A stretch of DNA of 46,436 nucleotides from Paramecium tetraurelia (taxonomy: Eukaryota), in the NCBI GenBank assembly GCA_000165425.1, contig CT868064.1:124001-170436 (forward strand), read 5' to 3'. The notes beneath the pieces were generated by a model that worked only from the letters and a program-made list of their open reading frames with translations, ran no database searches and was not told the DNA's origin. The position numbers and the translations under genes are program-made. Of the stretch, positions 10,112-43,069 are shown piece by piece (positions within the stretch are counted from its first letter, which is position 1; the number at the start of each line of letters is the position of its first letter).

Positions 10112-13100
10112 ATGAAAGTTGAGACATTTTTATACATTCTGCTAATCTTAGGGTATTTCGGAGTGAATGGTTTAACAAATTAACCCGCTGGAGTACAAGC
10201 AACAGCACAAACCGACAGTCAACCTGCATATCTTTGTTCGACAGGTAATAATGAAGAATATACAATAGGCTATTTTTTCAATGATTAGATCTGTATGTCT
10301 TGCTTAACAGTTGCAGGAGGATTATGCACATGTAAAGCATATAATGGCTGTGATACTCTCACTTGCAATGATGGTTATTACTAAGTTGGATAGTATATTT
10401 AAATATCATATTATGTAGATCTTGCATCACAATTCCAGACACCAATTGCGCCAAAGGTGGTTTATCAGCCGACGGAACAAGCATAGTGTGTTACTCATGC
10501 AAAGCAGGTTCGTCGACAACATTGATTGGTATATTTAATAATTATATAATAGGTGGAATATGTGTTTCGAATAATAATTGTTAAACCTTCGATTTGAACA
10601 CTGGTATTTGTACAAAATGTAATGATGGATTCTACAACGTAATGGCTGAATACACTCCCAGCGAATATTTCGATACAACAGCATCCACTTGGACCTCATC
10701 TAATTATCCTCTTTATTTCCAAAATATCTAATAATGTAAGGCTTGCAATGCAGATGTCTCATGCAAAACTTGTAATTTCCTGTAATTATATTCATGATTA
10801 ATTAATCTAGTACTTAATGCACAGCCTGCATTGACAATTTCTATTTGAGTGGAACTAAATGTAATGCATGCATTACAGGATGTCAAAAATGTAATGACTC
10901 TTCAACTTGTACAACTTGTATTTCAACTTCTTCACCACCATATTATTTAACAAATACAAACACTTGTATATAATGTTCTGGAATCTAATATTGGGATACT
11001 TAATAGAAAAAATGTGTTGATTGTACAACAATAGATCCCAATTGCACAGCATGTACTTCTAATACATGTACGACCTGTAGTGCTGGTAACTATCCTGTCA
11101 ATGGAACATGTAAAACATGTACAGGATACCCCACTACATGTTCAGCTTGTGATGCTAATGGTACTTGTACAAGTTGTACTTCAAATTCAGTAATGTCTAT
11201 TTTGGTTTAACAAAACAATACATGTAAAACATGTCCTACTAATTGTTATTCTGCATCAAATTGCTAATTCAACTCATAAAACAATACTACAATTTGTACT
11301 TTATGTCAAGATCTTTACTATGTTAATGCTTCAGGACAATGTGCTTTGTGTGATTCAGCTGGAGAAAGTAATGCTTTGAGATGTCACTATGATGCAACTG
11401 TTACTGGTAACATAGTTTACACCTAATGTAAATCCCCTTACTTCTTGGCTAATAACAAATGTACTCAAGCATAATCTACTAACACTTGTGCCAAATTACA
11501 AGTAATAGATAGTCAAACTCAATTAAGTAACTAAAACTGTGCTGAATGCTGGCCTGGATATATTCAAAGTGGTGCTACTTGTTTCCAATGTAATAATTGC
11601 CAATCTGGAAGCTGTTCATTAAATACAAGCAACTAACCATCATGTACTCTATGTGTTGATGGATACTATGCTGATACAAATCAAAATTGTCAATCCTGTA
11701 TTTCCAATTGTACTTCATGCAGTGGATCCGGGATCGGAGATTGTACAAATTGCTAAGCTGGTTATTTCAAGGGAACCACTTCATGCACAGCTTGTACTGT
11801 TGACAGCAACAATCATGCAACTTGTTTGGTTTGCTAAGATGCTACCAACTGTTCCAGTTGCATAAATGGCTACTATGTTTCAAATGGTTTATGTTTGGCC
11901 TGTTAATATGGATGTAGTTAATGTACTACCCCAGGAAACGTATGCACAGCATGTATCAACGGATACTACTTATAAAATGGAGGTTGTGTTCAAGACAATG
12001 GAAATTGCTATTCCACTGATAAGCAGAATGTCCTCACCACAATCCAAGCAAATTAAACCAATGGTTGTTAGATCTGTAATTATGGTTTCTACTTGACCAG
12101 TGGATGGCTAACTTAATAAACCTCATCATAGATTCAAGATTATGTTTGCATGTAATGTGTCTATCCTTAAACTGCTGTATTTTTATTTGTTTTTAATCTT
12201 TTTAGTTTGTTTGCAGAACCAACCCATAAGATGTTTCTGTATAATCCGTGTAACCCACAGTAACCTCCCTCACACCTAGCAGTCAATACTTTGCCAAGGG
12301 TTCAGTTGTTACTACTATTTCCAATTTCGGATTATTAGATACAAGATACACCTAAGCCACATGTGCCCCTGGATACTTCTGGACCAATCAAAGTTGTATG
12401 CCTTGCATGTCAGTAACTAATGGTACTTGCACATCATGCACTAATCTTACTGCTTGTACCCAAATTACATGTTCCACTAACTATTTCTTAACCACAATCA
12501 ATAACACTCAATTATGTGCACCCATACCAGCTGGATGCAGTGAATTAACATACTCAACTACTCTTCTTGCCTTAGCCTGTACAAAATGCAACACTGGATA
12601 CACTCTAGTCGGATCATCCATCTGTGTTTCAAATACTGGTTGTTAAACTGTTAATCCAAGCACTGGAATATGTACTCAATGTTCAGATGGCTTTTACTTC
12701 AATTGGGATTTCGTCTTGAATGCATAATAAAATCCTCCAACCACCAACACCAAATATTACTCCACATTCAATCAATTCTGTTCAGCATGTTAAGCAGGAT
12801 GTTAGACTTGTCCATCCTAATACACCTGTACTTTATGTTTACCAGGATACTTCTGGTATTAATCAACAGTCACCTCTAACACTGGTGCATTTATCAAATA
12901 CAGTTCCAATTTGACATCAAATATTTCAGGATAATGTGTCACATGTCCTAAATACTGTTAGACTTGTACATCAGCTACTACTTGCAGTACTTGTTATCCC
13001 AATTTCTAACCAGATCCTAACTCAACTGTCGGTGCATGCATGTGTCCATCAGGATATAATTTAATTACTTCTGGTTCATCAATAACATGTATCTAATAAA

Positions 13101-14416
13101 CACAAACTACTGCAATATGCAATATAACTGCTTGTTCTCAATGCAATGCCGATAACACTCAATGTTTGGCTTGCTTAGCACAATATTAAGGAAAGTCCTA
13201 CACTTTAATGGGATCAACTTGTGTCACTTGCACATAAAATTGTAGCTCATGCACATTGATGACTGGCAGCACAAGTCAAACTACTTGTTAAGTTTGCTAG
13301 AACGGATATTATAAGACTCAAAGCGCCAATGATCAACCAGTCCTCTGTTCTATTTGCTCATAAACTGGAGCTCTCTTATGTCAAGGTCCTTTGGAGAATG
13401 CCACCTTCTCATAGGTCACAGTTATCCAATGTCAAAATAACTATTATTTATATAATGGAACTTGTGTTCCAGTACCCACTACAGCCACTTGCTATACAAT
13501 TTCAGCTTAAAACGGCAGCAATTGTCAATAATGTCTCCCTGGATATACATTATTTGGAAGCACTTGTTAAACATGTGCCACAAGCAAGAACTAGAATTGT
13601 GTGTAATGCAATGCAAATGCTGATTAAACTGGATTGTAATGCACTTAATGTTAAAATGGATATGTGATTGATTCTACCAACAACGTTTGTGTTGCATGCA
13701 TAAGTGGATGCACTAAATGTACTTTGATTGCTGCCACTTAAAATACTGCATAAAGTACTTTATGTAGTGCCTGCAATGATGGAAATTACTTGGACAACAC
13801 AACTGGAAGATGCTTTGCTTGCCCATATGATTGCAAGACATGCGATACTAAATTTGTACTTATTTTATTTTATAATATCATAGACATGCACAACATGCAA
13901 GGATGGATTTTATTTGAAATAATCACAAACTACATTCAATGCCAAATAATACACCTTCAAACCATGTTACCCATGTTAGTCTAATTGTGCAACATGCTCA
14001 GCAAATGGAAATGTCTGTTTGACTTGCTCATCTGGATATGTCTTATAAAATGGTGGATGTGTCAATTTGTAATAATCAATCGTCAATGATGCCAACCAAG
14101 TACAATTATGCCAATTGTTATTAACTTGACACAACTAACACAGGATGTCTTAACTGTTTAGCTGGATTCTACTTAGATGCCTCTAAAGTATGTTAAGAAT
14201 GTGTTTCTCCATACAACAACGTAAGATTAATCAATTAACCTTTAGTTTGTTTGTGGCCTCAAACCAGTTAGTCCAACCAATCCAGTAGACCCAGGAAATA
14301 ATAATAATGGTAATACAACACCAACTGACACCACTATCCAAATTGGATAAAATCCAGCTCCACCAAGTTCATATTCAATTATATTGGGAATGCTAATAGT
14401 CATAGTTTTATAATGA
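10112..14416 (+). CDS. Large Cys-rich (CxxC / furin-like repeat) surface protein with signal peptide and GPI-type C-terminus, two tandem modules
   Basis: N-terminus MKVETFLYILLILGYFGVNG, dozens of CxxC..GYY repeats, multiple tiny introns (e.g. 10245-10268, 12177-12205, 14221-14245). The frame stays open across 12206-12380. It ends PAPPSSYSIILGMLIVIVLQ-TGA. Confidence 0.88.
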
Positions 14417-14456
14417 GCATTTTTAGATAATCATAATTATATTTTAAATACGGTTT

Positions 14457-16631
14457 ATGTATATTAAGTTTGCAACTATCTTTATCCTGACTTTCACATC
14501 ATTCGCTTAAACCACTGGGCAGGATTGCACTGAGTTGAGTTGCATATCTACTGGTGCTCTCAAACAACAATACACCACAAGAGTATCATAAAAGTGTATG
14601 GAAGGTAAGCTTGATGATGATCAATTAAATTAGGGTATTTTTGGGCAGGACAATCATGCTAACCTTGTAAGCCAATCTAGGGTGGACATTACGCTTGCAC
14701 TTCTTATTGGGGAACTGGTACATTGTATTGTTTATCTGGTTGGACAATCCTAAATGGGTAAATAATAAAATTACGTACATAGGGTTTGTGTGAATCTACC
14801 CAATGGATGCTTAACCTACTAGTTAAATCAGGATTAGAATGCTTATGTTTGTGGTTCTTGTGATACTGGATTCACTCTGATAGCAGGAGTGTGTGTATAA
14901 AATTAAGCATGTGTCACTTACAGCAGTACTAAATATGTGTGTACTTAATGCTAATAAGGATATTATTTAAATTGGGATTATATACCTGATGTCTCTTCTG
15001 CAAGCGACAACTATTATAATTATTTTGGTAGCTTTTGTAATCCTTGCAGCATTTCAAGTTGTGCAAATTGTCCATCAGCGTAATCATATGCTTTATACTT
15101 AGCAATACTTGTACTTAATGTAAACCAGGATTTTTTTGGTCATTTAGTGGATTAACATCTACTTCTGTAACATCAGGATCTGGAACATGTGAAAAATGTC
15201 TTGATAATTGTATAAATTGCACAAACAATACAAATTGCACATAATGTTCTGATGGCTATTATGCAAACACAATTAATGGTATAACAACATGTTCTTCATG
15301 CTAACCTTCTACAACGTGTGTCAAATGCAGCAATTCAACAACATGTACTTAATGTCTAAGTAGTTATTAATTATTAAACCCAACCACTTGCGAGAAATTG
15401 TATGATGGTTGTACTTAAATGGATACAAATAAGAATTGTACATCTTGTTAAAGTAATTACGTATTGAATACATAATCACCCAAAACTTGCACACCTTGTG
15501 GAACAGGATGCGCGACTTGCTAATTAAGTAATAATATAGCCACTTGCACTGCATGCCAAGAATTTTACTATGCAACAAAAGATTCCAATGGAATTGTCAC
15601 TTGTGTTGAATGCAAATCCAATCCATAATCCACTGGTTGGTTGAGATGTGGAGGTCCATATGATAGCCCATCATACACCACAGTTTAAGTAACCCAATGT
15701 ATCGATGGTTATTTCTTGGTCAATATAACATCCAATAACATCACTACACCCACTTGCATTGCAGCCATTCCTTCATCAGCTTGTCTGACACTTACCACAA
15801 CATCCACCAACACAAATAATATCTGTGCCACATGCATACCTAATTACAATCCTTATGTTGATGGAACTTGCTTATCTTGTCCTCCTCAATAAGGAGCCAA
15901 ATAACAACTCTCCAGTCAATGTAACAAATGTAGTGGAACATCCACAACCAATATCTCTTGTGCTGGATGTAGTCAAAGATACTTCCTTTAATCTGCAAAT
16001 TCAGCAGTTTCAGCCACATGTGCCACTTGTTCTGCTAGTGGTGGATGTCTTGAATGTCAATCTAATCTTAATTGTACTAAATGCGATGTTGGCTACTTTA
16101 AGACTGGGGATTCGAACAATTCTGTATGTCAACCTTGTCTCAAAAATTGTGCTGTTTGTACTGATTCAAATGTATTGATTCACTCATATTTTAGAAATGC
16201 ACAACTTGCATGGATGGCTATTTTGCTTATACTGGTTCACAAACAGCTTAATCTGCTTGTGTGGCTTGTTAATTTGGATGTGCTACATGCAATAACCCTG
16301 GAAGTACATGTTAATCCTGTATTGATGGATATGTACTCTAAAGTGGTGGTTGTGTACCTTTGAATTAAGCTAATTGTGCAGTAAAACTTAACTCCGCAAC
16401 AACAACAACTATTCAAACCTATAATTCAAATGGCTGTAGTATTTGTAAATATGGATTCCATATGATATCCAATCGTTGCTTTTAATCAGTCCAACCTTAT
16501 GCAGGAGTATTTAAATATCTTATCTTTAGTTTGCTTATAAGCAATTAAGCGAATAAACAATTATTAATGACACTCCACAATTTGGATTTATTTTGACATC
16601 GATGTTCATAATGTTACAATTTGTTTTTTGA
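14457..16631 (+). CDS. Cys-rich surface protein, single-module paralog of the upstream gene, GPI-type C-terminus
   Basis: Signal peptide MYIKFATIFILTFTSFA, CxxC repeats, introns at 14605-14633 and 16507-16529 among others. It ends QFGFILTSMFIMLQFVF-TGA. Confidence 0.87.
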
Positions 16632-16667: not shown

Positions 16668-18601
16668 TCATTTAAAAAGAGTACTATATAATTCACTGAT
16701 CTTTAACTCCCCAGATTTAAATGTCCTCTATAGTAATTGATCGCTCCTCATCTTTCTATGTCTAAATGACAATTGTAGTTTGTACAAGTTTAATGTATCG
16801 TTCTATTCAGTTATTATTCTCTTTGGTTCATTATTCTTCTTTAAAGCATCTCCGTAGAGCATTTTTAAATCAGTCAACTAACTTAAATTGATTATAGTCC
16901 TTAACTTAATCTGTTTGGACTTCACTCTCTTAGTAAAATCTTCAGATGATTACTTGCTGTGTATCTTAGCAGAGGATAACAGTATTTAAGCATATTCAAT
17001 AGGAGGAGAACGTTCTTTTGATTCCTTTGGTGAATTCAAGGGATGTGTATGAGCAGTCCTTTTAACCACTCTATCCTCCTTGAATATTTTATCAATCAAT
17101 TTCTAATTAAAACTGGACAACTTCCTTTCTCTAACTGTTTTCACTACCTTCTTCTCTTCCTATTATTGTTCCGGTTCCTAAGATTCCAAAATTTCAGTTT
17201 GTTGCTTTAAACTCTCAAATGGTTTAATTTAGGATGGACTTCTAATTATTAAAGTTGGCGATTCCAATCCACTCGATTAAAATGTCTTGCCCTGCTGTAA
17301 ACAAGTAAAATCTCTGGCAATCATCAATGAAGAAGTCATTGATTTTTTGGAATTGCCCCCATTCCCTCCACTTATCTTAGTGTAATCCCTTTTTATTATC
17401 CCTTTTGGAAACAACTTGGAGGGAGCCTGGAGTGTGCTCTGACTTTTCCTCAACCAAGGATGACCCAATACCTAATAAGCTGAATACCTCTCATTTGGAT
17501 CTGGATGCAACATCAATTGAACGAGTTCCTTGTATTCCTTGCTCAAAGTAATGTTTGGAAATTAGTAGTTTAATTTTAAGATGTTCTGAACAGTCTACTC
17601 TTAGATTGGTCGAGTGAAGGGCAGAGTGCCACACACTAGAGCAAACAATATCACTCCCATTGCCCATATGTCTATAGATGGTCGTATCTATTGGATTTAT
17701 CCTGATAGCACTTCAGGAGGCATGTAACTTAAACTTCCCAAATCTATCTTATCAATGATAAAGTTTGTAGCCACAGTAGCAATACCAAAATCTATGATCT
17801 TGACCTATTTGTCTGTTTTAGATGTTAAAAGAATATTCTCCAGCTTCAGATCTCTATGTACTAGCTTTTAATCGTGGCAATAACAAATGGCATCTGCGAT
17901 TTATCGAAATATAATGCGTGCCTCTTCCTCAGTAAGTTTTCCCTTCTCTAAATGATTACTCTATGAAATATTACATTGAATATAATCCACTAAGTCCCCT
18001 CCTTCTAAAAATTCCATAATTAAAACTACCTACATACTTGGAAGTGTGTAGCAATTGATAATCTTTATAATGTTTTTATGTCTTAGATTCTTCATTACTT
18101 CTGCTTCTCTAAATACCAAGTCTATATCAGCAGCATTCCATAATTTCCCTGAATCGATAATTTTAATGGCAACTTATTCTTGAGTCAGCTTATGTTTACC
18201 CAGCATCACTTTGCCAAATCCTCCTTCCCCCAAGGTCTTCATAATCTGATAGACACTGAATTGGGAATAAGCATCAAAATCTCTAGCTAAAAGTGAACTT
18301 TATAGGAAGAATGAAATTACAATCGGAAACGTATAGCAATGTGCCATCTTTCAGAAACATTAGATCTTCCTCAAAGATCTCAACCCCTTATTAGGTAAAC
18401 AATCGAAGTCGATCTAATTCTATTGAATAGAAATGTTCAGCCTTCTTTTTAATATCTTTCATACTGATCTGATTATTATTAAGCTCATTTTACTAGCGAA
18501 TACTCCATTGTAATGATCGCACTATTCAAATCTCCATTAAGTGTAAGCAACAACTTTTGTTTGCGATTCTCTTCAAAATAATTATCATAAATGTCTAACA
18601 T
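16668..18601 (-). CDS. CAMK-group (AMPK/SNF1/MARK-like) Ser/Thr kinase with N-terminal KHA/DCX-like domain
   Basis: LGEGGFGKV, VAIK, HRDLKLENILL, DFG, GSLSYMPPE, DIWAMGVILF and HPWL are all present. N-terminus has RLFTQQGVEIFEEDLMFLKDGTLLYVS. Several tiny introns. Confidence 0.93.
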
Positions 18602-18831
18602 ATTTATTATAATCAAAAATAAAAATTATATCAAACTTATCAGGTTGTACTCCGTTACTTAATGATATATTAATGAGAATCTGTAGTATATTTTATTTAT
18701 TATGTTGTAATAACTAATATCATTATTAAACCTATTTGTTTACAAAATTAAATACTAGATGATCACATTTACTGAAACATAAATAAATTGACGATTTTAA
18801 TATATTTTATATATTTATTTGTGTATATATT

Positions 18832-20336
18832 TCAATGTGACTCTTTCTTGCCTGGTAACAACTTAGACAAAAATCCATGATCATTGCTCTCACCCTCTGG
18901 CAATTTGAAGCTCTTCTTGATCTTGTAATAAGGGGGTCCCCAATTCTTTTCCAAGTAGATGTCTATGAATGCTTTCTTGAAGTTCTTGCACCAATTATAA
19001 TATCTAAATTATTATAATGAATGATTTACCTAAGAGAAGCCAAGAAGCCTCCATTTGAGAAATAAAGGTTGTGCCAAGCATTCTCATTGTTATATTTGTG
19101 ACACAAGAATGTTAGGGTATTTTAACCTAACAAAATTGGTACTTTACTATATCCATCATATTCGGCATTTAGTGATTTACCTGCAATGTTTCTTTCGATA
19201 TTATTTCTAACAACGTGAAGTTGATGGAATCCTGCCCAGAAACAATTAGTTGTAGGAACATCATTTACATCACCAAGTCCGAAAATGTTCTTAAATTTGT
19301 TGTGCTATAAGGTTTTGATGTTGACATCCAACAATCCCTTTGATGTGGTGAGACCAGCCTTAACTAATTAGTCATGAGGCTTTGTGGGTGCAACTGCATA
19401 CAAATGATTGAATGGTCTTGTCTATCTGCTGCCAGTTTTAACATCTTCGAAAATTGCTGTATTTTGTTATTTATTCACTTCAACCAATTTCAAACCATAT
19501 TCCACATTGATGTTTCTTCTTTTTATCTCCTCCTTGAAGAATTAATCTCCTGCATCATTGTACTAAACAAATCGCTCATTTGGTTAAATAATTGTGAGTC
19601 TCTTTATTGGTGATTGACGACCATTTGCTGTCTGCCATTCCCATATCCTTTAACTCAACAGGAAATTATAGGACTCCACTTCTCCACTGAATGGGAATTA
19701 AGGAATGCAGAAATATGCTTCACCGTGGTTGAAGTTGTAATGCCATCTTGTATATTTATGATTTGAGGAACGCCAACTTGGATGATCAAGATTTGTGAAG
19801 ACTGGAGAATCAAAATCTTACCAAGCCTCTTCGAATCCCTTGATTGCATCATAATTCACTTATTAACCTATAGAAATGTTAACATTGATATTTAATACCC
19901 ATAGCCACAACTAATTAACCATAACTGATACGTCTGCCATTTCTCAATATGATGGCATTCTCTTCTGGCAAGATTGTTTGGGATCCCACTTAATCTGAGT
20001 GAGCTGTGTACATATTGAGTGACAATTTGGCATTTAATAAGAAATCAGTCTTTGGCTGTCTTCTATTATTCATAGATCTATCTGATTGGTGTTATTTAAT
20101 TGATATTCTAATCCAATACTACCATGGTCTTGTATTTTCCATGTGAAACCTAATCAATTATCAGAATATCCTAATACCTTATCAAGTTGTCTGCTTAAAA
20201 CACCACCCAAATTACATCCGATAATTACAACATCATAATGATCAAGATCTTTCTTTGTAGGCTTACGCTTGTTAAACACACCCGCGAAGTAGCGAGGTGT
20301 AAGCGAATGCCTCAATTGCATTCCAGATATTAGCAT
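18832..20336 (-). CDS. Mitochondrial sulfide:quinone oxidoreductase-like protein lacking both catalytic Cys, probable ortholog of ciliate ATP synthase subunit ATPTT1
   Basis: Basic mitochondrial-type presequence, then HYDVVIIGCNLGG, ISYGQLVVAMG, GLLDVNIKTLQHNKFKNIFGLGDVNDVPTT and AEYDGYSKVPILLG, colinear with SQOR. ATG at 20336, TGA at 18832-18834. Confidence 0.82.
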
Positions 20337-22968: not shown

Positions 22969-24531
22969 TCAAAATTCTGCACCACAGAATAAGCATAGTA
23001 AATCAGAATTTGGATGTCCCTTTGTTATTATATCCTTTAAAGAATGAAAATCTATTTCCTTATCATATGAGATATTCACAGAATCAAAGATGACTCTGGT
23101 GAAAAATTCAGATATATCATTCAAGAAATTCGTATCTTATGTCTTGACTATCTTACTCATGGTTTGATGACTTAATTTAGAAACTTCAGGGTAAGAGAGT
23201 TTCCCATTTCTATCCATATCAGCGATTTTGATGAATAAGTCAATGCGTTCTTCCTTAGTTTTGGCTTATACTGAACTCATCAGGAATAAAAATTGTTACC
23301 AATCCAAAAAGCCTGAACATCTAGAATCTATGATATTAAATATTCCTTTAGCCATATATTCTGATTAATCTTAGATATTCTCTATTCCTTATCTATAAAA
23401 ATCGTATGATATCCCTTTAGTCAATTTGTTTTTTTCTCTCTTTTAAGTTATAGCAGTTAAAAGTTGAAGCACTTTAAAAAATGAATAAAAAGCATACAAT
23501 TAAGCTCTATTCAACTTATATTTAGCTTAGATATCTGGGATATTCATTTCAGTGAGTAATGGTATGCTTTCCAACCAATTCTGTTCATCTGAAAAATAAT
23601 TCCTGGGTTTAAATTTGTTTTTTTATTATTCTTTATCCAGAATTAATTGTAAAGGGTGACTAATTCTTTTAGAAAGAGTCTTTGATTCAAATGCTCTACT
23701 TTTGGGAGTAGGATATTAAATTTGGTCATAAAATTTAATAATCTTTTTGACATCATCAGTTTTTTGAGATAATTAATTATGCATATTTTCAATATAATTT
23801 TGTAATTCTTCTTAACATTTTTCCATGTTTTCTATAAAATATTTCTCTTATTTATTCATCTTAATTTTACTTGTGAAAATAAAACTAGATTTTTATGTCT
23901 TTGGTGATAGAAAGGGTCTTGAAGATTATACACTAGTAGTTCTTGTGTAATTATCGTAAACAGATTGCAAATTTCTCATTTCTTTTGTTAAAAATGTCCC
24001 TCTATGTGTGGTGGGAGGTGATTTTGGCACATCTTAATGAACTGATATAAGGGAGAGACATGATTTTAATTTGCATACAGGTATTTATTACAATCCTTCA
24101 TTGGAATGATAGCTTTATGAAGCTCCTCTATCAATCTTGTTGATTTATTTAATATAGTGATCAAATGGGCGAACAAATAGCCAGAATAGATTAGATCTGG
24201 TACTAAATAAATAGGATTTGCTTGACTTCGAATAGTATTTTATTTAGTTGCCATAAATATCATAAAAAAATATAGTCTTATTCAAGAGATTTCTCTCCTT
24301 CAAAAATTCATTCAATTCCATTTTGATAAGAGTGTCTATTTTATATTTGATCAATTGTTTAAGATTTATTTCAATGTGTAAAGGAGTGATTTTCTAATCT
24401 GTTAAAATATCATCAACAAATATAGCTAAAATCTTTTCTTTTTGAACAGGGATTTGTTCATTATCAATAAAACCCCATTAGGATTGTCTTTATTGAATTT
24501 TTGAATTTCCTGTGATCATCAATCGAGCCAT
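22969..24531 (-). CDS. Protein with C-terminal calcineurin-B/NCS-like EF-hand domain, about 520 aa
   Basis: Frame length 1563 nt. Contains IFNIIDSRCSGFLDWQQFL and ERIDLFIKIADMDRNGKLSYPEV (canonical DxDxNGxLxxxE loop) and ends LLCLFCGAEF-TGA. Confidence 0.82.
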
Positions 24532-27918: not shown

Positions 27919-30895
27919 TCAAGAAAACTTGGATTTATGATGTCCTTTAATTAGTTTGGTTTTGAAAGCATTTTTGCTTGAATATACACCTGATGATAGT
28001 TATTATTATTTGAATTCTTAAAGATCAGTTAGAATATTATAATTATCTTCTTCTTCTTCATCATAGTCTTATTATTAGAATACATCTTTATATTCTGAGT
28101 CATCATATTTTTTTGGATCTTGATCATTTAGATTTTGTTGATTCTAGTAAGTAAACTGTTTTTATTTGAATTATTCATATGTCTTCAAAGCATTCTTTGC
28201 TCTACTCAAGGCCTTCTCTTTCTTGTCTTCTTTTTCTGCTTAAATTAATTATTATTATTATTCCTTTTGCTACTTACTACCATATAATCGGTCCAATAAT
28301 TGTTGTTTAGATGAACTGATTTACCCATCAGTTTTTTCAACTTTAGTTGGAATAATAGTGTCTTTGAGTTCTTCTAATAATTCATTAGCTTCCTGTTCTG
28401 CGGCATCGGCCCTAGATTTTTCATCTATTCTGTAACCCCAATTAACATCATGGCCCAAAATCAATGCTCCTATTTTTGAGATTTATCCATTTCTAAATGC
28501 CCACAAATAACAACAACAATCAAATGAGGATGTTGCAAAATGCGATCCATCTTTACAGACTTCGATATAAGTTATCCCATCTTGATGAGCCTTTCTTTGA
28601 TATCCAACCTCCTTAATATCTCCGATTACAAATATCTATTAAATATTTGATTCTTTAATACTTAAGCAATATCTTCTTATCCATAATCCATGGCTGTTAC
28701 AAATGTATCAGCATCATTGTTCTTTCTCGTCTTTATCTTTTACTCTACTTAATGTAGATCCACTTTATCTAAGACTTGTTTAATATTCCAGATTTTTAGA
28801 TTACCTAATTCATCACCCAAATATAATAAATCATCATCATAATTTATTGAAGTCACAGGAAACTATTGATAGATGTTAAATTTACTGTTTCTTCTTAATT
28901 AGTCAAAGAGATGGCTTTATATGTTTTTTACAATAATAATTTTGATTTGAATTTGCTTTCCAAAACTCCTATGAAATACACATTTCCGATAGAATCAACA
29001 CTTACAATGCAATTATGGGATTCCAAAAACATTACTTTTTTCAACTCATATTAGCATTTCCAGACTAGTTCTTGTCTGTAAGAAACTAAATCTATAATAA
29101 AGATAGCTCCATCATCAGCACAACTGACTAAATGTTCACTATCTTATTTAACATGCAATGAATTAACACTTAGATGATGCTGTTTCATTTTGTATCTACA
29201 TGATTTGTGAGCATCTTGAGAGTCCTCATCATGAATGTTGACAGTATCTTCTCTGCTGCAACTAATGACTCTTCTATTAGTATCATTGCTCCAATGAGCT
29301 AAATCAGTGATCATCTTGTGATGTCTTTCAAATTTTTTCATTTTAGCACCATTCTTAATATTGACAGTGAATATTCTGCCTTCAGCATCTCCAATAAACA
29401 ACTTCCTTTATCTTGCATCAATAATCATAGTAGTTAATTCAGCAACACTCAATTCTCTATAAACCTATTGCAATTTCCCAGTTCTAGCATCCCAAGTTTT
29501 AACGCTATCAGGATGAAGAGTGATAAAACATGTTAGAGTTTAATTATATAAAACTTTTAAACACATTTTCTCATCTGTCAACATCTAATCTTTGGGCTCA
29601 TCATATTCATAAAAGAACATCTTTCTTGCACCTACAACAATTTATTTTTTTGGATAGGTTAATGTAAATGCTTAGATTTCATCTGCAGGAACATTGAAAG
29701 TTTAGATTTATAAAAAGTTTCTGACATCCCAAACTTTCACCATTCCAGAAATATCTGCTGTAACTACTTAAGATGTTCTAGGCAAGCATTTTACTCCAAC
29801 TAATGGATGATTATGACCTCTAAGTAAGAAAATCTTTTCTTTTACATAAGTATTCCACACAAATGCTTCATGATCCAATCCAGCACTAATCAAACACTAA
29901 TTCATGGGACTCCAATCACTCCAATCTAAACTATACACACCTTTTTCATGGCCTCTTAGCTCTTTCTTAGGTTGATGTGTAGCACTGTCCCATAAACAAA
30001 TATTGCCATCTAAACCACCTGTCACTAGAGTGTTTTACTAATCTATTGCCAATATATCACCGATAGGAGAAGAGTGTCCGTATTATTGGGAGTCTCTTTT
30101 AATAAAAGGGTTCCAACCTGATAAGGTCCCTCTTTCTTTTAAATCGTATGTGTCATATATATGAATTATAGAATCCGATCCACCTGTGTATAAGAAATTA
30201 GATTAAGAGGAACTCCACCTTGCATATCTCATACACAATTATATTTCTGGGACCGAGAGAATTTACTTTAAGTTGAAACTACTTGAGTCCCAGAAATTTA
30301 TTGTTAAATCATTACTGCTACTCGCAATTAAATTTTAATCAGGAATAAATTCTGCAGATAATACATATCCTTTGTGAGCATTTACATTCCAAATTAGTTC
30401 ACTTGTATTAGAGTTGTATACCTTAAATTTTGGAGACTCTTTCTCCAATACTAAAAGCATTTTCAATCTGTCAAAGAAATACACTCTATCGATCACTGTC
30501 TCATGCTTTTGTTCATCTTTAATGTTTTCTGCTGGATGATAACTTTTTATTACATCTTTAAATGATCTGTCATTTCTTAATAATCCTAATTCAATTATGT
30601 GATTGCTAAATTCCACCCATTCCATCGTACCATCACCATTAACATCTATTTCTTTAAATAATTCAATTAATGCTAACGTTATTTTCTTGGTCTCCTCTTT
30701 TGAATCCTTATTGTAATCCAAGTGCTCCAACATGACTTTGAGAAACTGTTAGATGGTCAATCCTTATCCTTTTGAATTTTTATCTGGGAAGCATCTTTCT
30801 ATTACTGCCATTTTCTTCTTATGCAATTTCTCCATAATATCTATTTCTTTTTTTTCATAATCCTAATCATAATCCTCATAATCTTAGTTCTTCAT
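27919..30895 (-). CDS. EF-hand plus WD40-repeat protein (WDR49/WDR64-like architecture), about 975 aa
   Basis: [24 protein letters not shown]-hand followed by many GH...WD repeats ([41 protein letters not shown]). Introns of 23 and 26 nt give an exact multiple of 3. Confidence 0.9.
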
Positions 30896-34861: not shown

Positions 34862-37800
34862 TCATTTAACAGATTCAAAAATTAAATGCGTAACTCTTAT
34901 GGAGCGTGTCTGCTTCTACTTATATTAAAGGCATCTATGTTTAATTTTTTAAATTATCAAAATTATCTATTTAATGAAAATTCCCAATAAACCAGATATC
35001 AGTACATATATTTAAGCAAAGCCTAGTAATATCTTATTTTCATCGCTAATCAAATAATTATAATCTTCTAAATGTAATATTGACGTCAGATTAAAGATTA
35101 TGATTGATGTTTCCAATAGGATAATTTGGAATTTATCCAATTTCTCCAAATTGAATTTTACAAAAGCTAAAAATAATAAGTAAATCACATTTGTTGTGCT
35201 TAACATTAATAATTGAATTAAAGAATGATTTTGAAAACAAATTAAGAAGTAGCAAAAAAAAAACTGTTTAAGTAGGTAAATTGCCTTGAACCTTTTATTC
35301 AAATCAGAGTTTATTCTTGATAAGCCTCCTTTTAATGATGAGATAACAAATTTTACTGTAGCAAGCAAAGTCATATACGATAAGACATTTTATATTCGAG
35401 AAATAGTATCAAAATTTGATGTGGATTCTAAATATAAAAATGTTTTAAATAATATGTCCCAAGCATTTGCTAATAGCAAACTTTCTATTCCATCCTGGTT
35501 AAATTAATAGACAAAAACTAAGATATAATGGAAAAAGCCAAATAACCAATTGAATAATTTAGGGAGTACCTTGGATTGTATATTTCTTAATTTGAAAACT
35601 AACAAATTTTAAATCTGAATTTTATAAACTAATCTAAAACTGACTTAACCGATGGCTTTCAATATAATTACAAATATAAAGGTTGAAAAACTTTAAACGA
35701 CAAAAAATTGCAGATTAGTTATTAAATGGGCATTAAGATTGTAAAACCTTAATTTAGCATATGACTCAATAAAGTCGGAATAGAGAAATATTTAATAAAA
35801 TTAACCTATTTTTAGAAATTCTAAAACTGGAATAATGCTTATTAAATTAGTGGCTTCAAAAAAAAGGTAAAGATTTTCAGGGTAGATAATATTTGCATAC
35901 TTTAAATACGATTAATACTGTAGGCTGTCCAATATTTCTACAAAAATTTGGAAATTTCCAGAAATTAACATGATAACACTACCAATTCCTTAAGCCATAA
36001 TCATAGCTTCTTAATATTTGGTGAGTTGCCTAGTTTTTTCAACATCGGATTAACTCAGCTTAGTAAATTATTTGAGTAATAATTATTCAGATGGATTTAG
36101 TAATTCCAAATTATATTAATTAAACGCCACATTCATTAGAGTTAATTATAATCTTGTGAGACTACTATTATTTGATGTTAAGAACTCTAATTTTACTTGA
36201 AATTAATAGTTAAGAATTTAATTTATAACTGGTTAGAAGTTCGATTCTAGATTTATTGCATAATCTTCAGGATTTATTTCATCAACACTGAAATCAAAAA
36301 GAGATTATAAATCATAACTATCCTTAAAAAAGATTGCTTAGGAAAATGATATCTCAATATAATATTTATTATATGTTTAGTTTAAGAATTTCACTATCAT
36401 ATAAGGAGACTCAGAGTATTCACATTCTGAGTAACTATTGTTTTTGTCTTAACATTTATAATCAATTTCAATTTTACAATTTGAAGAACAACCGTCCACA
36501 TCATTAAGATTGCCATCGTCACATTATTCATCGTAAGATTTAATTCCACTTCCACAGTCATTCTAACAAATATTTTACTCAAATTAAAAATATTGTTAGC
36601 ACTCTTAACAAATTCCTTCATCGCAATCTATGCAATATTAAGAACAAGAATATTGGCAATTATAGCATCCATCAAATTAAATGTTATTTCCATCATCGCA
36701 TTATTCTGTTTATTATATTATACCATCACCACAGATTGGAAGGCATATCCCATCTTTATTGGTTTCTCCAGTTGGACAATTATCATAACAAGTACCATCA
36801 ATACAATTATTGCATTCAGTTAAACAAGATAGCTAGCATTTATGATTTATCTCAATAAAAGGCCATAAACAAAGAAAACATCTTTTTGAATCAATACAAA
36901 ATTCACAATTTTCAGGGCAAGCAAATCTACAATTTATACAATCATCTAAATTTGAATCACATTCTTCTTATGATATAATTGCTACTTAATTATCCCCACA
37001 AATTTATTGGCATGATCCGTTAATAAGCGACCAACCTCCTATGCAAGAAAAACAATATGAATTCTAACATTAAAGACATTAAATCTGACAACTACCATTA
37101 CATTTATAGCATCCTATTTCAATTAAACTAATATGATGTTCATCTTTGAATACTAGTATTCCTTTGGTAATCTAAGATATACATTAGTTCTTTAATAGAA
37201 AATAATCAACCAAGCATTTTTTACATTTACCGTATTCGCAAATTTCGCAATATTAAGGACATTACAATATTTTACTGTCATTTTCAACCTATGATATTCC
37301 AAGATTACATTGGATGTCATTATCCTCACAACAACTGACATTGTTCTTCTCAGTAATTTAATTTTGATTTACGTTTGAAGTAATACAATTAAGAAATCTA
37401 AAGTTAGTTTTAATCTCCAAACATTTACCACTTATTAATTAATATGTTGGGTTACAATACTAACAAACTCCAAAAATACATTCATAACAGTTTTATATAC
37501 ATTAAAAATAACAATTATTACATCCATCATTCGGAATAGTATTTCCATCGTCACATTCTTCATCCTATTGAATTATACCATCTCCGCATACTTTCTTTTC
37601 ATTTTCCTCTTAAGCAAATGAAAATTAATTATAATCAACTTAACTTTGATCTAATGTAAATTCTCCATAATTTCGAATGCATATTCCATTTGAGTAATAA
37701 TATCCTGAATTGCACATCTAACATTAACCAAATTGACATTTTTGGCAGTTCACAGGACATGCAAACTTACATTCATGACACCCATCAAAAGGAAAATTAT

Positions 37801-39069
37801 TGCCATCATCACATTGCTCATTTCCTGTGATTAATTTATCTCCACAAGAAGGGTCGCAACTTTTATTTAAAGCATTATAATCCCATCTAGTATCACACAT
37901 CAGACATTCTCCTCTAACACAAAATGTACATCCTTCCAAACAAGATTCTTACTTAGCAAAACAACCATCAAACGGTGCTAAATTGTCATCAACACATGAG
38001 ATTAAGTTTATTGGCCCTCGTAGAATTACAGACAATTCACGAATACATACAGTGCCATCTACACTATATATTTCTAATTTAATTTGATTTCTAGTATCGT
38101 CTATTGTCCAAGTTCTATAATCCACTTACTTTTTATCATTAATTAGTCCATACTTCCATTCATCATTTATGTAAACTCTAACAATTATAGGCAAGGCTGA
38201 AATATATTCAATTCTAAATTGTATTATTAAAGAAATATGATCTGGCAGTGTAAGATAAGTTATTGCAGAATCCCATTTATTTAATACAAGCATTTTTAGT
38301 TAAACTATAATTACTCACACTATTACAATCATTTGTCATTTATGTAAAAGACGGAAATTTATTCTTTATCCAACCTTCAAGCCCATTATCAAGGTTTTTC
38401 AGTTGAAAAAAAGACTTCCACAATATCCACATCGTGCAATCATTCGTAGAATCTAAGCAAAATTGACATCCTGACTGACATTCATTTAATGTTATAGAGA
38501 AATCAGTAAGTCCCCAATAGTTCTTAATATTTTAAAATAACACATACAGCGCTTGAACAATCAGAGCGTATTTCAACAATAATAGAATTTAATGTATGCA
38601 AAAGCACATTACTATTTAATGAAGAACTAAAGTCTGAGCCAGTACCTGCACATAAATTCGATCCTATATTATCTGGATAATACCAAGATTTTGTCCATTA
38701 ATCTATCACAATATAAAAGTACTGAGAAGTTGGCCAATCATCAATTCTAAAGATATTTTTTATATTAAACTTCCAAAAATTGAAATCTATGCTCACACCA
38801 TAATGAGGTGGCAGTGAGAAATAATTCATTATTGCTGTTTGTTATGACGAATAACATCCGAAGATCTGGTATCCCCCAAACATTAGGTTTCCTCCACAAC
38901 TGTATGTATGAACAGTGGCCCCATTATAAGGGTTTTTAATTAACCACCCTAAATGAATATGATAATATCTACCTTCGTCACCAGATATTGATGATGTAAC
39001 AAAATGTTAAATATAATATGCTTCAACAATTATTCCTAAAATCTGAAAATGGAAGAACCGAACAAACAT
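34862..39069 (-). CDS. Large surface/membrane protein: signal peptide, LPPHY-type N-terminal domains, Myxococcus-type Cys-rich repeats (CGDG..EQCDDGN..DGC), C-terminal multipass TM region
   Basis: ATG at 39069, FGGYQIFG...FSLPPHYGV, repeated CGD(K/G)..E(Q/E)CDDGN..P(F/N)DGC, then GNFQIFVEILDSLQYQSYLKYANIIYPENL followed by several hydrophobic helices. TGA at 34862-34864. Confidence 0.85.
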
Positions 39070-40199: not shown

Positions 40200-42301
40200 T
40201 CAGATGAAATGGATGAGTCGGTTTTATACTCCCATTTCTTAAAGGATTATTGGTACTGATGATTACATCGGAGGAGGTCCACAAATCAAAAATCTTTGAT
40301 AATCCATAGTTTTCCCCAGGAATTTATCAAACATTTCTTTACTAAATCTCTCCTCAATAGTTTCTATTCCTTCAATTTTCTCTTTTATTTTAATGATCAA
40401 TCTCAAGTATTATTTATCTAAGTATTTTTATAATTAAATTATTGGGAATAGAATATCAGATCCAATTAATTCTGATTTATTGGCTGCTGCAAAAAATAAA
40501 GTAATGTGTATATTTGTATTGAATTAACAATCATAAGGATTCAAATTATCAGCTGTTTATTTGCCAAACTTGTTTAATGCTATTTGGTGAATAATTGTTT
40601 TTAGAAGAAAATCTAATAAATCTAAAAATGGAAATATTCCTGTTCCTCCACATATAATAACAATATTGCCTCTATTGGGTAGACCATGAGGTGGCCCATA
40701 AGGTCCTTAAATATCATAAATCTCATCCTTATGATTATGAATATATTATGAGAAACCACCCTTTAGATCATAGCATTTAATCATTAATGGCAGNNNNNNN
40801 NNNNNNNNNNNNNNNNNNNNNNNNNNNNNNNNNNNNNNNNNNNNNNNNNNNNNNNNNNNNNNNNNNNNNNNNNNNNNNNNNNNNNNNNNNNNNNNNNNNN
40901 AGCGCATCACTAAGCCCAGAAACCTAGGTTGTTAAGGAACTTTGGCTTACTATTTTGTTGTATATATGTAGTCGATGTATTTAACTAGTTCCTTTCTATA
41001 AACAACATTTTCAGGAGCCATAGAAGCTACACATGTGTATTATCGAATTGGAGTTTTCTTAGATTAAATAGATTAGATTTGAAAATATTTGCCAAATGAA
41101 TGAATAGTTGTAAATTGAGATATTATATTAGGTTTAGGATTAGTGAATCCAAAATAACTTGTTTTATCATTTAATTTGGTTATAGTTTCCAATTTCCATT
41201 AAGTACTATTATTTGAATTGTTTTCATCAATAGGAATTGTAAATGCAATATTATTTAATGATCCAATAATATGATTTTTCAATAGTACAATTGCATTTTA
41301 AGAATGAGGATATTATTTAGCTGTTCCATCCTCTAATCCACAGCCTCCGTAAACAAATCTAGAGACTTCTCGGCCTTTAACTCTTTCCCAAATATATTAA
41401 CCACCTGGGTGTGTAAATCCTGTTAAATCAATGATTTCATCATTAAAAATTAACCAAAATTTATTCTGAAATTCATTGTAAATATGAGATTATTCTAATT
41501 AATAGGATTAAATATCATACCATTCTACTCAATATATTAGATTAACAATGAATCTTATAGTGTTCCGGAGTGTTCTTTTGGCATTGAATTTTTCTAAATC
41601 AATATTAAATATATCTTTCCCTTTTAATATAAGAATTCAAAAATGATTCTCCATAAAAAAATAAAACTATATACGCACCAAAAGGATATTATATCACCCT
41701 TTCCATTTTTATTCTGAAATTGATAAGTCATATAGTAGCCAAATCCTAATTAGATTTTCCCAAGAAGATATATTACATATCCCGAATAGACGTGTAGAAG
41801 GGATTTTATTTTCAGGTGTGTTTATGTGTTCACTGATTGAATACAAAATTTTATTATGACCCCTCCTAACATCTAAAAAATCATCATTCCCAAAAATATA
41901 TATCCAATTATACTATGAAATCCCTATAGGTTTTGGTTCCCATAAAGAGGAGGAGTATTCCCAGAAAATATCATAAATAATTCGGCTATTATTGAAGGCA
42001 AAACTACAAGGCTCATAATGATAGCATGAATATCATATTTATTTTTTAGCAATATACCGTATCTATTTGCAATAATTCCCAGATCAACTAGAATTGCCCA
42101 TCCAATAAAATTAGAATATTAATGAAAGTAAAACAGGACATATTTATCATTACTTTAATCTTCTTATTAGTTGACATCATAAGGATCTTACTAGCTTATC
42201 AATGAATCTTCTAGAAATGAATTTTAAGGATATTGATTGCCCTAGCCTGAACAATAGGACAGTGTAATTACAAATGCAAAAAGCAGCAATTTAGTCAGCA
42301 T
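40200..42301 (-). CDS. Cytochrome b561 - cytochrome b5 - NAD(P)H:cytochrome b5 reductase (FNR-like) fusion protein, interrupted by an assembly gap
   Basis: Signal peptide, four His-bearing TM helices (FHQYSNFIGWAIL, DIHAIIM, FHSIIGY, LHVYSGY), a b5 domain (WLIFNDEIIDLTGFTHPGG...YPHSQNA), FAD motif RQYT and GGFSQYI, NAD motifs GPYG, GGTGIFP and CGPP. TGA at 40200-40202. Confidence 0.9.
40794..40900. other. Assembly gap (N run)
   Basis: 107 consecutive N. Confidence 1.
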
Positions 42302-42919
42302 AGTATATAATTATTTATTAGATAATAATTTCACTTTAATGTTGGTTTAAAAGAAAAATTGATGTCATATTATGTCATCAAATCCACTTAGAAAATTTTA
42401 GAGCCTATAGTCAAATTACGTAATCAAGAATTTTATTATACTAACGATATTTTATATTATTAAATCTATACTAATTTGTATAACCATAATGTGCATACAA
42501 AGGGTAAATTATTAATAGTTTGGCTTCAAATTATGTCATAAGCCATTTAATTTACTTCCCGAACAAATTTAAAGGAATTAAGCCATAATATTATATTTAT
42601 CGAATTGACTTAAACAATATATTTAAAATGTTTTTAAATTTCGAGTTGTAGAAAATTATAACATGCTTCTTTGAAATAAATTTGTTAAATCGTGTTTTCT
42701 CTTATTTATTTAACAGATTTTTTAACCAAATTTGAGCAAATATATGAATAATGGATTAAATTGGTGATCGAAATTAAGTGAGATAGAAAAAACAAAAATA
42801 ATTTAAAGCAACAATTTAAAATAATTTCTTAAAGAGAATTAAAATGATGTTAGAAAATTAAAGTTTAAGTCAAATAACAAAAGGATAATCTGCCGCTGGC
42901 TGCAGTACTAAAGACGCTA

Positions 42920-43069
42920 NNNNNNNNNNNNNNNNNNNNNNNNNNNNNNNNNNNNNNNNNNNNNNNNNNNNNNNNNNNNNNNNNNNNNNNNNNNNNNNNN
43001 NNNNNNNNNNNNNNNNNNNNNNNNNNNNNNNNNNNNNNNNNNNNNNNNNNNNNNNNNNNNNNNNNNNNN
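42920..43069. other. Assembly gap (N run)
   Basis: 150 consecutive N. Confidence 1.

What the first reader, a model, noticed from the sequence alone, without database searches (positions are those of the whole stretch)
40200..42301. One-polypeptide transmembrane electron chain: cytochrome b561 + cytochrome b5 + FAD/NAD(P)H reductase
Seen: a signal peptide and short acidic ectodomain, a b561-type bundle with all four heme-ligand His, a b5 domain with HPGG and a second His (YPHS), and a complete FNR-type reductase (RxYT, GxxS, GPxG, GGTG, CGP). Established: b561 proteins usually take electrons from cytosolic ascorbate, b5+b5R fusions (NCB5OR, nitrate reductase) are soluble, and NOX/FRE enzymes use a different ferric-reductase membrane domain with no b5. 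Inference: electrons could flow NAD(P)H > FAD > b5 heme > two b561 hemes > external or lumenal acceptor. That would be an independently assembled analogue of NADPH oxidase/ferric reductase, perhaps for iron reduction or ROS production in food vacuoles. I know of no functional characterisation.
Basis: partly seen in the sequence, partly recalled or inferred. Interest (0 to 1): 0.85.

Follow-up and report, generated by a model that had tools for sequence, protein, structure and literature searches.

The report
Ciliate self-fed membrane electron wire
This Paramecium gene encodes one membrane protein that joins an NAD(P)H-oxidising flavin enzyme to three haem sites crossing the membrane, so it probably exports electrons, most likely to reduce iron, doing the job of ferric reductases and NADPH oxidases with different parts.

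Summary
Window 42301→40200 (minus strand, code 6, Paramecium tetraurelia) is one 652-aa gene. Four of four public runs bridge the N-gap in frame, and one RNA-like run splices its 26-nt intron. It has a signal peptide, a five-helix cytochrome b561 (Pfam above cut-off; best folds AtCytb561 and Dcytb), a cytochrome b5 and an FNR-type FAD/NAD(P)H module, with b5 and reductase on the cytosolic side. It belongs to a family: 11 loci in this genome and 95 full-length proteins, 87 keeping all six haem histidines. Named members are Paramecium, Tetrahymena and Blepharisma; 32 of 60 scanned carry an outer DOMON domain. The three basic ascorbate-binding residues of Dcytb are mostly lost, and Paramecium reportedly lacks ascorbate synthesis. 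Best reading: NAD(P)H→FAD→b5→two b561 haems→outside, most likely a ferric/cupric reductase (0.55). Superoxide production is less likely. It works like FRE/NOX but fails their histidine test. No activity is shown, and ten paper searches found no description; two key reviews could not be read. This scan noted the same b561-b5-reductase design earlier in early-diverging fungi, so it is probably not ciliate-only.

The parts
40200..42301 (-). Whole gene, 652 aa + TGA, genetic code 6, two exons
   Evidence: ortholog P0016
41521..42301 (-). Exon 1 (signal peptide, ectodomain, b561 domain, linker)
41495..41520 (-). 26-nt GT..AG intron
   Evidence: skipped in 1 of 4 runs laid, the RNA-like X17; ends; frame change at the same place in paralogs L015 and L017
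40200..41494 (-). Exon 2 (b5, FAD and NAD(P)H domains), spanning the assembly gap
42248..42301 (-). Probable signal peptide, residues 1 to about 18
   Evidence: hydropathy; no dedicated predictor was run
42137..42247 (-). Short acidic, low-confidence ectodomain (7 acidic, 1 basic in 37 residues), where many relatives have a DOMON domain
41624..42136 (-). Cytochrome b561 domain, five helices; His60 (42124) and His129 (41917) for the outer haem, His92 (42028) and His170 (41794) for the cytosolic haem
   Evidence: Pfam; model; folds; pairing rule from PMC10691727
41247..41468 (-). Cytochrome b5 domain, His289 (41411) and His324 (41306), His-His spacing 35
40683..41246 (-). FAD-binding barrel with RQYT, GxxS and GPYG, and a helical insertion after RQYT
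   Evidence: no Pfam FAD_binding_6 hit for this protein or P0016
40203..40682 (-). NAD(P)H-binding domain with GGTG and CGPP; aliphatic C-terminus
40794..40924 (.). Assembly artefact: 107 N plus 24 unsupported letters, in place of 14 real coding letters
   Evidence: 4 of 4 runs; two codons between the same pieces in paralogs

Best explanation
A single-chain, NAD(P)H-driven trans-membrane reductase, most likely a ferric/cupric-chelate reductase of the cell surface or the endolysosome/food-vacuole system. SHOWN: one polypeptide; domain order; six conserved haem-ligand His; intact flavin and nucleotide motifs; b561 and FNR folds; loss of most of the Dcytb ascorbate site. INFERRED from family knowledge: cytosolic NAD(P)H gives a hydride to FAD; FAD passes single electrons to the b5 haem; b5 replaces ascorbate as donor to the cytosolic b561 haem (His92/His170); the electron crosses to the outer haem (His60/His129) and, in DOMON-bearing paralogs, to a fourth Met/His haem. 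INFERRED most weakly: the acceptor is Fe(III) or Cu(II), and the compartment. About 0.8 for the outward chain, 0.55 for metal reduction as its job.
For: One ORF; three paralogs are single open frames from b561 to the stop (L018, L022, L024). Six His kept in 87 of 95. Model of P0016: pLDDT 90.6, pTM 0.85. Membrane domain: AtCytb561 Z 13.9 and Dcytb Z 13.8, against NOX5 and STEAP4 Z 10.1; the five best Foldseek rows are b561. Loops 1 and 3 and the tail are basic (3, 3, 5 K/R), loop 2 has none. Basic residue at the Dcytb ascorbate positions H2-7, H2-3, H4-7 in only 9 of 95, 8 of 95, 14 of 93; none of the three in the window protein (positions from PMC10691727). Paramecium lacks GULO and GLDH (PMC4396506); no ALO-domain candidate in G000. 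DOMON in 32 of 60, with Met and His ligands in 31 of 33 each. The CYBDOM protein HYP1 exports electrons and reduces ferric and cupric substrates (PMC10784544). No Ferric_reduct candidate in G000.
Against: No activity, haem, flavin or location data exist for any member. No Nramp candidate was found in G000 (control rang in 8 of 14), and other Fe(II) importers were not searched. The outer-face residues tied to Dcytb ferric reduction (H2+22 His, H3-3 Tyr, H4+25 Phe) are not conserved in the family. Basic residues remain at H1+23 (64 of 89) and H4-3 (76 of 93), so an altered ascorbate site is not excluded. Loop 4, expected outside, has 2 K/R. Family searches in G000 are insensitive: PF03188 found 2 of 11 known loci, so the absence of FRE/NOX is weak. 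Z 13.9 is near the level that helical bundles can reach by chance (note), and the Foldseek E-values were 0.02 or worse. Expression rests on 1 of 4 runs, whose RNA status is a guess.
Confidence: 0.55

Rival explanations
1. Same outward chain, but the acceptor is not a metal chelate: a lumenal or surface redox partner such as a quinone, monodehydroascorbate from prey, a free GPI-anchored DOMON protein, or a haem or copper enzyme.
For: Dcytb ferric-site residues are not conserved. Four stand-alone DOMON genes without b561 lie in G000; at least two end in a hydrophobic tail and could partner DOMON-less members such as this one. An Atlas cluster of 179 proteins joins peroxidase, DOMON and b5 (score 0.76, lead only).
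Against: The characterised b561 and CYBDOM proteins read about here reduce ferric chelates. No partner link was shown.
Confidence: 0.22
2. A NOX analogue: the outer haem reduces O2 to superoxide to kill prey in food vacuoles or for signalling.
For: Same overall plan as NOX2, which the whole model aligns to end to end, loosely (Z 17.6, rmsd 10.2). No NOX/FRE found in G000. 18 of the 33 eukaryote proteomes without an FRD protein were alveolates, species not named in the passage (PMC3591440).
Against: Recalled, not tested: b5 (about 0 mV) and b561 haems (about +20 to +170 mV) lie well above the O2/superoxide couple (about -160 mV), whereas NOX haems are near -250 mV. No EF-hand or other regulatory module in the Pfam lists. 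The NOX His pattern is absent.
Confidence: 0.13
3. A membrane-anchored b5/b5-reductase fusion (NCB5OR-like) that feeds cytosol-facing desaturases or P450s, with the b561 part as anchor or overflow.
For: Best reductase fold match is human Ncb5or (Z 18.6), tied with many other FNR-family members.
Against: All four b561 His, including the outer pair (89 and 94 of 95), are conserved. Outer DOMON haem ligands are conserved. The b5 has only 0-2 acidic residues around HPGG, unlike the acidic patch recalled for free b5. Ordinary b5 reductases exist separately in G000.
Confidence: 0.06
4. Inward direction: oxidation of an outside reductant (for example superoxide or Fe(II)) with electrons delivered to the cytosol.
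For: b561 proteins of some bacteria oxidise superoxide (recalled). Direction cannot be read from sequence.
Against: Reducing NAD(P)+ through b5 would be strongly uphill (recalled potentials).
Confidence: 0.04

Closest known systems
CYBDOM proteins (DOMON + cytochrome b561; Arabidopsis HYP1 and CRR, insect CG8399, animal SDR2)
   Same: Signal peptide, H1-H4 in the first four helices of a five-helix b561, outer DOMON with Met/His ligands in about half of the family, outward electron flow.
   Different: CYBDOMs use cytosolic ascorbate and keep Arg at H4-7; this family mostly lacks it (14 of 93 basic) and carries its own b5 and FAD/NAD(P)H module. The window gene has no DOMON.
Single-domain cytochromes b561 (human Dcytb, PDB 5ZLG; AtCytb561, PDB 4O6Y)
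   Same: Four-His two-haem core; best structural matches (Z 13.8-13.9 over 162-167 residues).
   Different: Six helices, ascorbate donor, no fused reductase.
Ferric reductase domain superfamily (yeast FRE, plant FRO, NOX/DUOX, STEAP)
   Same: One chain with membrane di-haem domain and C-terminal FAD and NAD(P)H domains; some FREs also carry DOMON (PMC3591440).
   Different: FRD haems hang on two His in each of two helices; here one His on each of four helices. A b5 lies between membrane and flavin domains. No PF01794 hit in 60 of 60 scanned.
NCB5OR / CYB5R4, fungal CBBR and the b5-b5R part of nitrate reductase
   Same: b5 followed by an FNR-type reductase in one chain.
   Different: Those are soluble and have no b561; NCB5OR has a CS domain between the two; here the b5 His-His spacing is 32-38 and the FAD domain has a helical insertion.
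(Peroxidase)-DOMON-b561-b5-reductase proteins of early-diverging fungi
   Same: Same domain order from DOMON to the NAD(P)H domain, by those notes.
   Different: Often tipped with a peroxidase; common descent with the ciliate family was not shown here (one search found no hit among 2211 long candidates, a weak test).

Membership tests
Cytochrome b561 | Four His on four consecutive membrane helices | tested here: met
   His60, 92, 129, 170 on helices 1-4 of the model; kept in 89, 95, 94, 93 of 95
Cytochrome b561 | Pfam PF03188 above curated cut-off | tested here: met
   35.1 bits against 23
Cytochrome b561 | b561 fold | tested here: met
   Ranks 1-2 of 48161 chains are 4O6Y and 5ZLG, Z 13.9 and 13.8, rmsd 3.3-3.4; Foldseek ranks 1-5 are b561, TM 0.62-0.65, E 0.02-0.28
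Cytochrome b561 (ascorbate-dependent type) | Basic residues at H2-7, H2-3, H4-7 (cytosolic ascorbate site) | tested here: not met
   Leu, Tyr, Leu in the window protein; two or more basic in 2 of 93 (definition)
Cytochrome b561 | Two b haems bound and trans-membrane electron transfer | not testable with these tools
   needs spectroscopy and electrophysiology
CYBDOM | N-terminal haem-type DOMON domain | tested here: not met
   No DOMON in the window protein or P0016; present in 32 of 60 relatives
CYBDOM | Conserved Arg at H4-7 for ascorbate | tested here: not met
   basic in 14 of 93; conserved in CG8399 and R307 of HYP1
Cytochrome b5 | HPGG His and second axial His | tested here: met
   95 of 95 for both
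Cytochrome b5 | Pfam PF00173 above cut-off | tested here: inconclusive
   20.5 bits against 23.7 for the window piece; above cut-off in P0004, P0024 and many relatives; profile hits solved b5 at about 1e-10
FNR / b5-reductase superfamily | RxY(T/S), GP, GTG, CG motifs and two-domain fold | tested here: met
   R 85, Y 93, GP 92, CG 85 and 89 of 95; Z 18.6, rmsd 3.5 over 242 residues
FNR / b5-reductase superfamily | NADH or NADPH specificity signature | tested here: inconclusive
   Neither the b5R acidic residue nor the FNR Ser-Arg pair is conserved at the aligned positions
FRD superfamily (FRE/NOX) | Haem His paired on two helices (101/115 and 209/222 in NOX2) | tested here: not met
   His spacing 32, 37, 41 (medians), one per helix; definition in PMC3591440
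FRD superfamily (FRE/NOX) | Pfam PF01794 Ferric_reduct | tested here: not met
   no hit in the window pieces at E up to 1, in 8 proteins at E 0.1, or in 60 of 60 at E 0.001
FRD superfamily (FRE/NOX) | C-terminal cytosolic FAD and NAD(P)H domains on the same chain | tested here: met
NCB5OR / CYB5R4 | Soluble b5-CS-b5R architecture | tested here: not met
   five membrane helices; about 30 residues between the second b5 His and the first barrel strands, no CS hit

The most novel reading that the evidence does not exclude
An overlooked eukaryotic superfamily of NAD(P)H-driven trans-membrane oxidoreductases, built from b561 + b5 + FNR instead of the ferric reductase domain. It is older than the deepest ciliate split, replaces FRE/NOX altogether in ciliates that cannot make ascorbate, is of one descent with the DOMON- and peroxidase-tipped versions in early-diverging fungi, and has diversified into metal reductases and ROS or peroxidase-coupled enzymes as FRE, NOX and DUOX did.
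Probability: 0.3. Interest if true: 0.87.

Novelty: new variant of a known kind. Interest (0 to 1): 0.68.

Why it matters
All characterised b561 proteins in the papers read here draw electrons from ascorbate, and NAD(P)H-driven export is the domain of FRE/NOX. This family joins a b561 to its own NAD(P)H source, a convergent solution to the same task. It gives ciliates, major bacterial grazers with no FRE/NOX found here, a concrete candidate for iron release from prey or for vacuolar redox chemistry, testable by RNAi in Paramecium or knockout in Tetrahymena. It would also be a compact natural model of b5-to-b561 electron transfer.

Tried and rejected
Two genes split by the gap: rejected (intact paralogs and orthologs). 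Retained IES or intron in the gap: rejected, 14 coding letters fill it. The 28- and 29-nt skips in run X17 as introns of this gene: rejected, they read GT..AG only on the plus strand and would shift the frame over RQYT. Plus-strand gene from those splices: no ORF over 148 aa. Complex prediction of the b561 part with the b5 part and three haems: no answer, score 0.00, alignments not used; not evidence either way. NAD_binding_6 hits in G000 as NOX/FRE: two of five (L028, L032) read as ordinary b5 reductases, L030 shows a b5R-like barrel start, L029 and L031 showed no reductase frame of 150 aa or more and were not resolved, though L029 has the same upstream gene as L028. FAD_binding_8 in G000: nothing, but the control rang nowhere. 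Context of metagenomic relatives: P0113 found no locus; profile scans of viral and prokaryote collections could not be run on these alignments, so viruses and prokaryotes are untested. Long (1366-3900 aa) relatives such as the fungal peroxidase fusions: none among 2211 candidates, weak test. First homolog search was swamped, 3 hits among 8000 candidates. Whole-model fold searches tested only the reductase part. Paper searches: no paper describing this architecture in the listings. Earlier-finding look-ups by sequence and place were empty.

Full report
1. The sequence. The window is AT-rich ciliate macronuclear DNA. A paralog from the same genome is 100% identical to a named Paramecium tetraurelia protein. 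On the minus strand under code 6, an ORF starts at 42301, changes frame at a 26-nt GT..AG intron (41520-41495), runs into 107 Ns (40900-40794) and ends at TGA 40202-40200.

2. The gap is an artefact. Contigs of 4 of 4 public runs, from 4 studies, join 40793 to 40925 with 14 letters between. The coding length becomes 781+570+14+594 = 1959 nt, 652 residues with no internal stop, 566 identical to the P. pentaurelia protein P0016 of 649 aa. One run, X17, whose RNA status is a guess, skips the 26-nt intron in a 2307-nt contig; the other three skip nothing and behave like DNA. X17 also skips two stretches that are GT..AG on the plus strand, so its contig mixes sense and antisense splicing. Expression evidence is therefore one run.

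3. Domains. Pfam on the three window pieces: b561 and NAD_binding_1 above cut-off, Cyt-b5 below cut-off, FAD_binding_6 not hit; P0016 gives the same picture. The model of P0016 from 106 sequences has pLDDT 90.6 and pTM 0.85. Its reductase part matches Ncb5or, b5 reductase and many FNR-family chains at Z 17-18.6. The window's own membrane domain, folded alone (pLDDT 92.6), ranks AtCytb561 and Dcytb first among 48161 chains (Z 13.9, 13.8), with NOX5 and STEAP4 at 10.1; the tool warns that helical bundles reach about 13 by chance, and Foldseek ranks b561 first without a significant E-value. HMM, His pattern and fold agree. The family profile hits solved cytochromes b5 at about 1e-10.

4. Topology. 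A hydrophobic N-terminus (no signal-peptide predictor was run), an acidic 37-residue ectodomain, then five helices. Loops 1 and 3 and the tail carry 3, 3 and 5 K/R, loop 2 none, loop 4 two. With H1/H3 on the outer haem and H2/H4 on the cytosolic haem (PMC10691727, passages), His60/His129 face out, His92/His170 face in, and b5 and reductase are cytosolic.

5. The family. A search of G000 with the C-terminal piece gave 14 matches at 11 loci. Of the 10 others, 8 show all three parts in order by tblastn, one (C202) by eye, and one (L016) is broken by stops and frameshifts. Three are single open frames from b561 to the stop. A profile search of 1.84 billion representatives gave 192 proteins at E up to 1e-30 and listed 150; 78 of these span the whole b561-b5-reductase profile. 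With other hits, 95 of 170 proteins are full length; the 75 partial ones were left out of the counts. All six His are kept in 87 of 95; three of the eight exceptions are cut at the N-terminus. Most are 17-34% identical to P0016. Blepharisma and Paramecium lie on opposite sides of the deepest ciliate split (recalled). The nearest Atlas cluster is eukaryotic, commonest Ciliophora (0.94). Of 60 full-length members scanned (of 95), 32 hit DOMON, 30 above cut-off, and none hits Ferric_reduct; P0096 passes all five cut-offs for DOMON, b561, b5, FAD and NAD domains. The DOMON Met and His ligands are kept in 31 of 33 each.

6. Why the fusion makes sense. Dcytb and AtCytb561 bind cytosolic ascorbate with basic residues at H2-7, H2-3 and H4-7, and H4-7 is conserved in insect CYBDOMs (PMC10691727, section 18 part 1 of 2). 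In this family they are basic in 9 of 95, 8 of 95 and 14 of 93. Against this, H1+23 and H4-3 stay basic in most members; they could bind b5 or an altered ascorbate site. Paramecium lacks both terminal enzymes of ascorbate synthesis (PMC4396506, passages), and no ALO domain was found in G000 (control 3 of 14). No Ferric_reduct candidate was found either (control 4 of 14), and 18 of 33 proteomes without FRD proteins were alveolates (PMC3591440, passages). These genome searches are insensitive: PF03188 found 2 of 11 known loci.

7. Mechanism. Inferred chain: NAD(P)H → FAD → b5 haem → cytosolic b561 haem → outer b561 haem (→ DOMON haem where present) → acceptor. By recalled potentials this runs downhill to Fe(III) chelates but uphill to O2. 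HYP1, a CYBDOM, exports electrons to ferric and cupric substrates (PMC10784544, passages). I put the outward chain at about 0.8 and metal reduction at 0.55. Against metal reduction: Dcytb's outer ferric-site residues are not conserved and no Nramp was found in G000. NADH versus NADPH cannot be called. Compartment is unknown.

8. Comparison. It works like FRE/NOX but is not a member: the His are one per helix, there is no PF01794 hit, and a b5 is inserted. It is a b561 by fold and ligands but not of the ascorbate-dependent type. It shares b5+b5R with NCB5OR but is a membrane protein without a CS domain.

9. Novelty. Ten searches of open-access full text (listings and abstract starts only) showed no paper on this architecture. 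Databases label members by one domain or as hypothetical. Iyer 2007 on DOMON and Asard 2013 on b561 were not held, and I saw nothing of them; either may picture the architecture. No supplements were read. Earlier notes of this scan report DOMON-b561-b5-reductase genes, some with a peroxidase head, in chytrids and Basidiobolus. I could check this only partly: an Atlas cluster of 179 peroxidase+DOMON+b5 proteins scores 0.76, a lead, and a search of long proteins found nothing. The design is thus probably wider than ciliates; whether it arose once is open.

10. Verdict. Real, conserved, apparently unstudied: a new variant of a known kind, interest 0.68.

Noticed in passing
window 40960-40988 and 41110-41137 (+): Run X17 skips 29 and 28 nt that read GT..AG on the plus strand: a spliced antisense RNA overlapping the FAD domain, apparently outnumbering the sense form there; no long plus-strand ORF results.
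   Followed up: partly
G000 C74, C5, C86, C402 (L033-L036): Four DOMON genes with no b561 downstream; L034 and L036 keep Met and His and end in a hydrophobic tail (AIR12-like); possible partners in trans for DOMON-less family members.
   Followed up: partly
L016 (G000:C71:6600-7600): Broken paralog about 10 kb from the intact L017; it has lost the b5 region, while P. octaurelia and P. primaurelia each have two intact proteins on contigs of equal length (P0010/P0019, P0011/P0018).
   Followed up: partly
window 40763-40767 and 41131-41132: Small assembly errors: 4 of 4 runs differ at 40763-40767 (frame kept) and 3 of 4 at 41131-41132.
   Followed up: yes
window 42890-43069: A second N gap (42920-43069) is also preceded by GC-rich letters that look like low-quality read ends.
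   Followed up: no
ESM Atlas: A cluster of 69 proteins of 614 aa, 95% viral (Nucleocytoviricota), with b5, FAD and NAD domains; whether it has a membrane domain was not checked (score 0.78, lead only).
   Followed up: no
P0056, P0063: Two relatives have Met in place of the fourth b561 His, possibly a His/Met cytosolic haem.
   Followed up: no
P0076, P0082, P0162: Members with two or four DOMON domains; L024 also appears to have a second DOMON-like region and a cysteine-rich repeat upstream.
   Followed up: no
window 215-38293: Ordinary neighbours with no evident link: bZIP (215-895), H+-pyrophosphatase piece (about 3972-4802), cyclic-nucleotide-binding protein (7971-9681), cysteine-rich surface protein (10734-15467), kinase (16668-18347), EF-hand protein (22969-24531), WD40 protein (28853-30895), DUF4215 protein (34862-38293); 18720-19940 looks by eye like a sulfide:quinone reductase piece but had no Pfam hit.
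   Followed up: no
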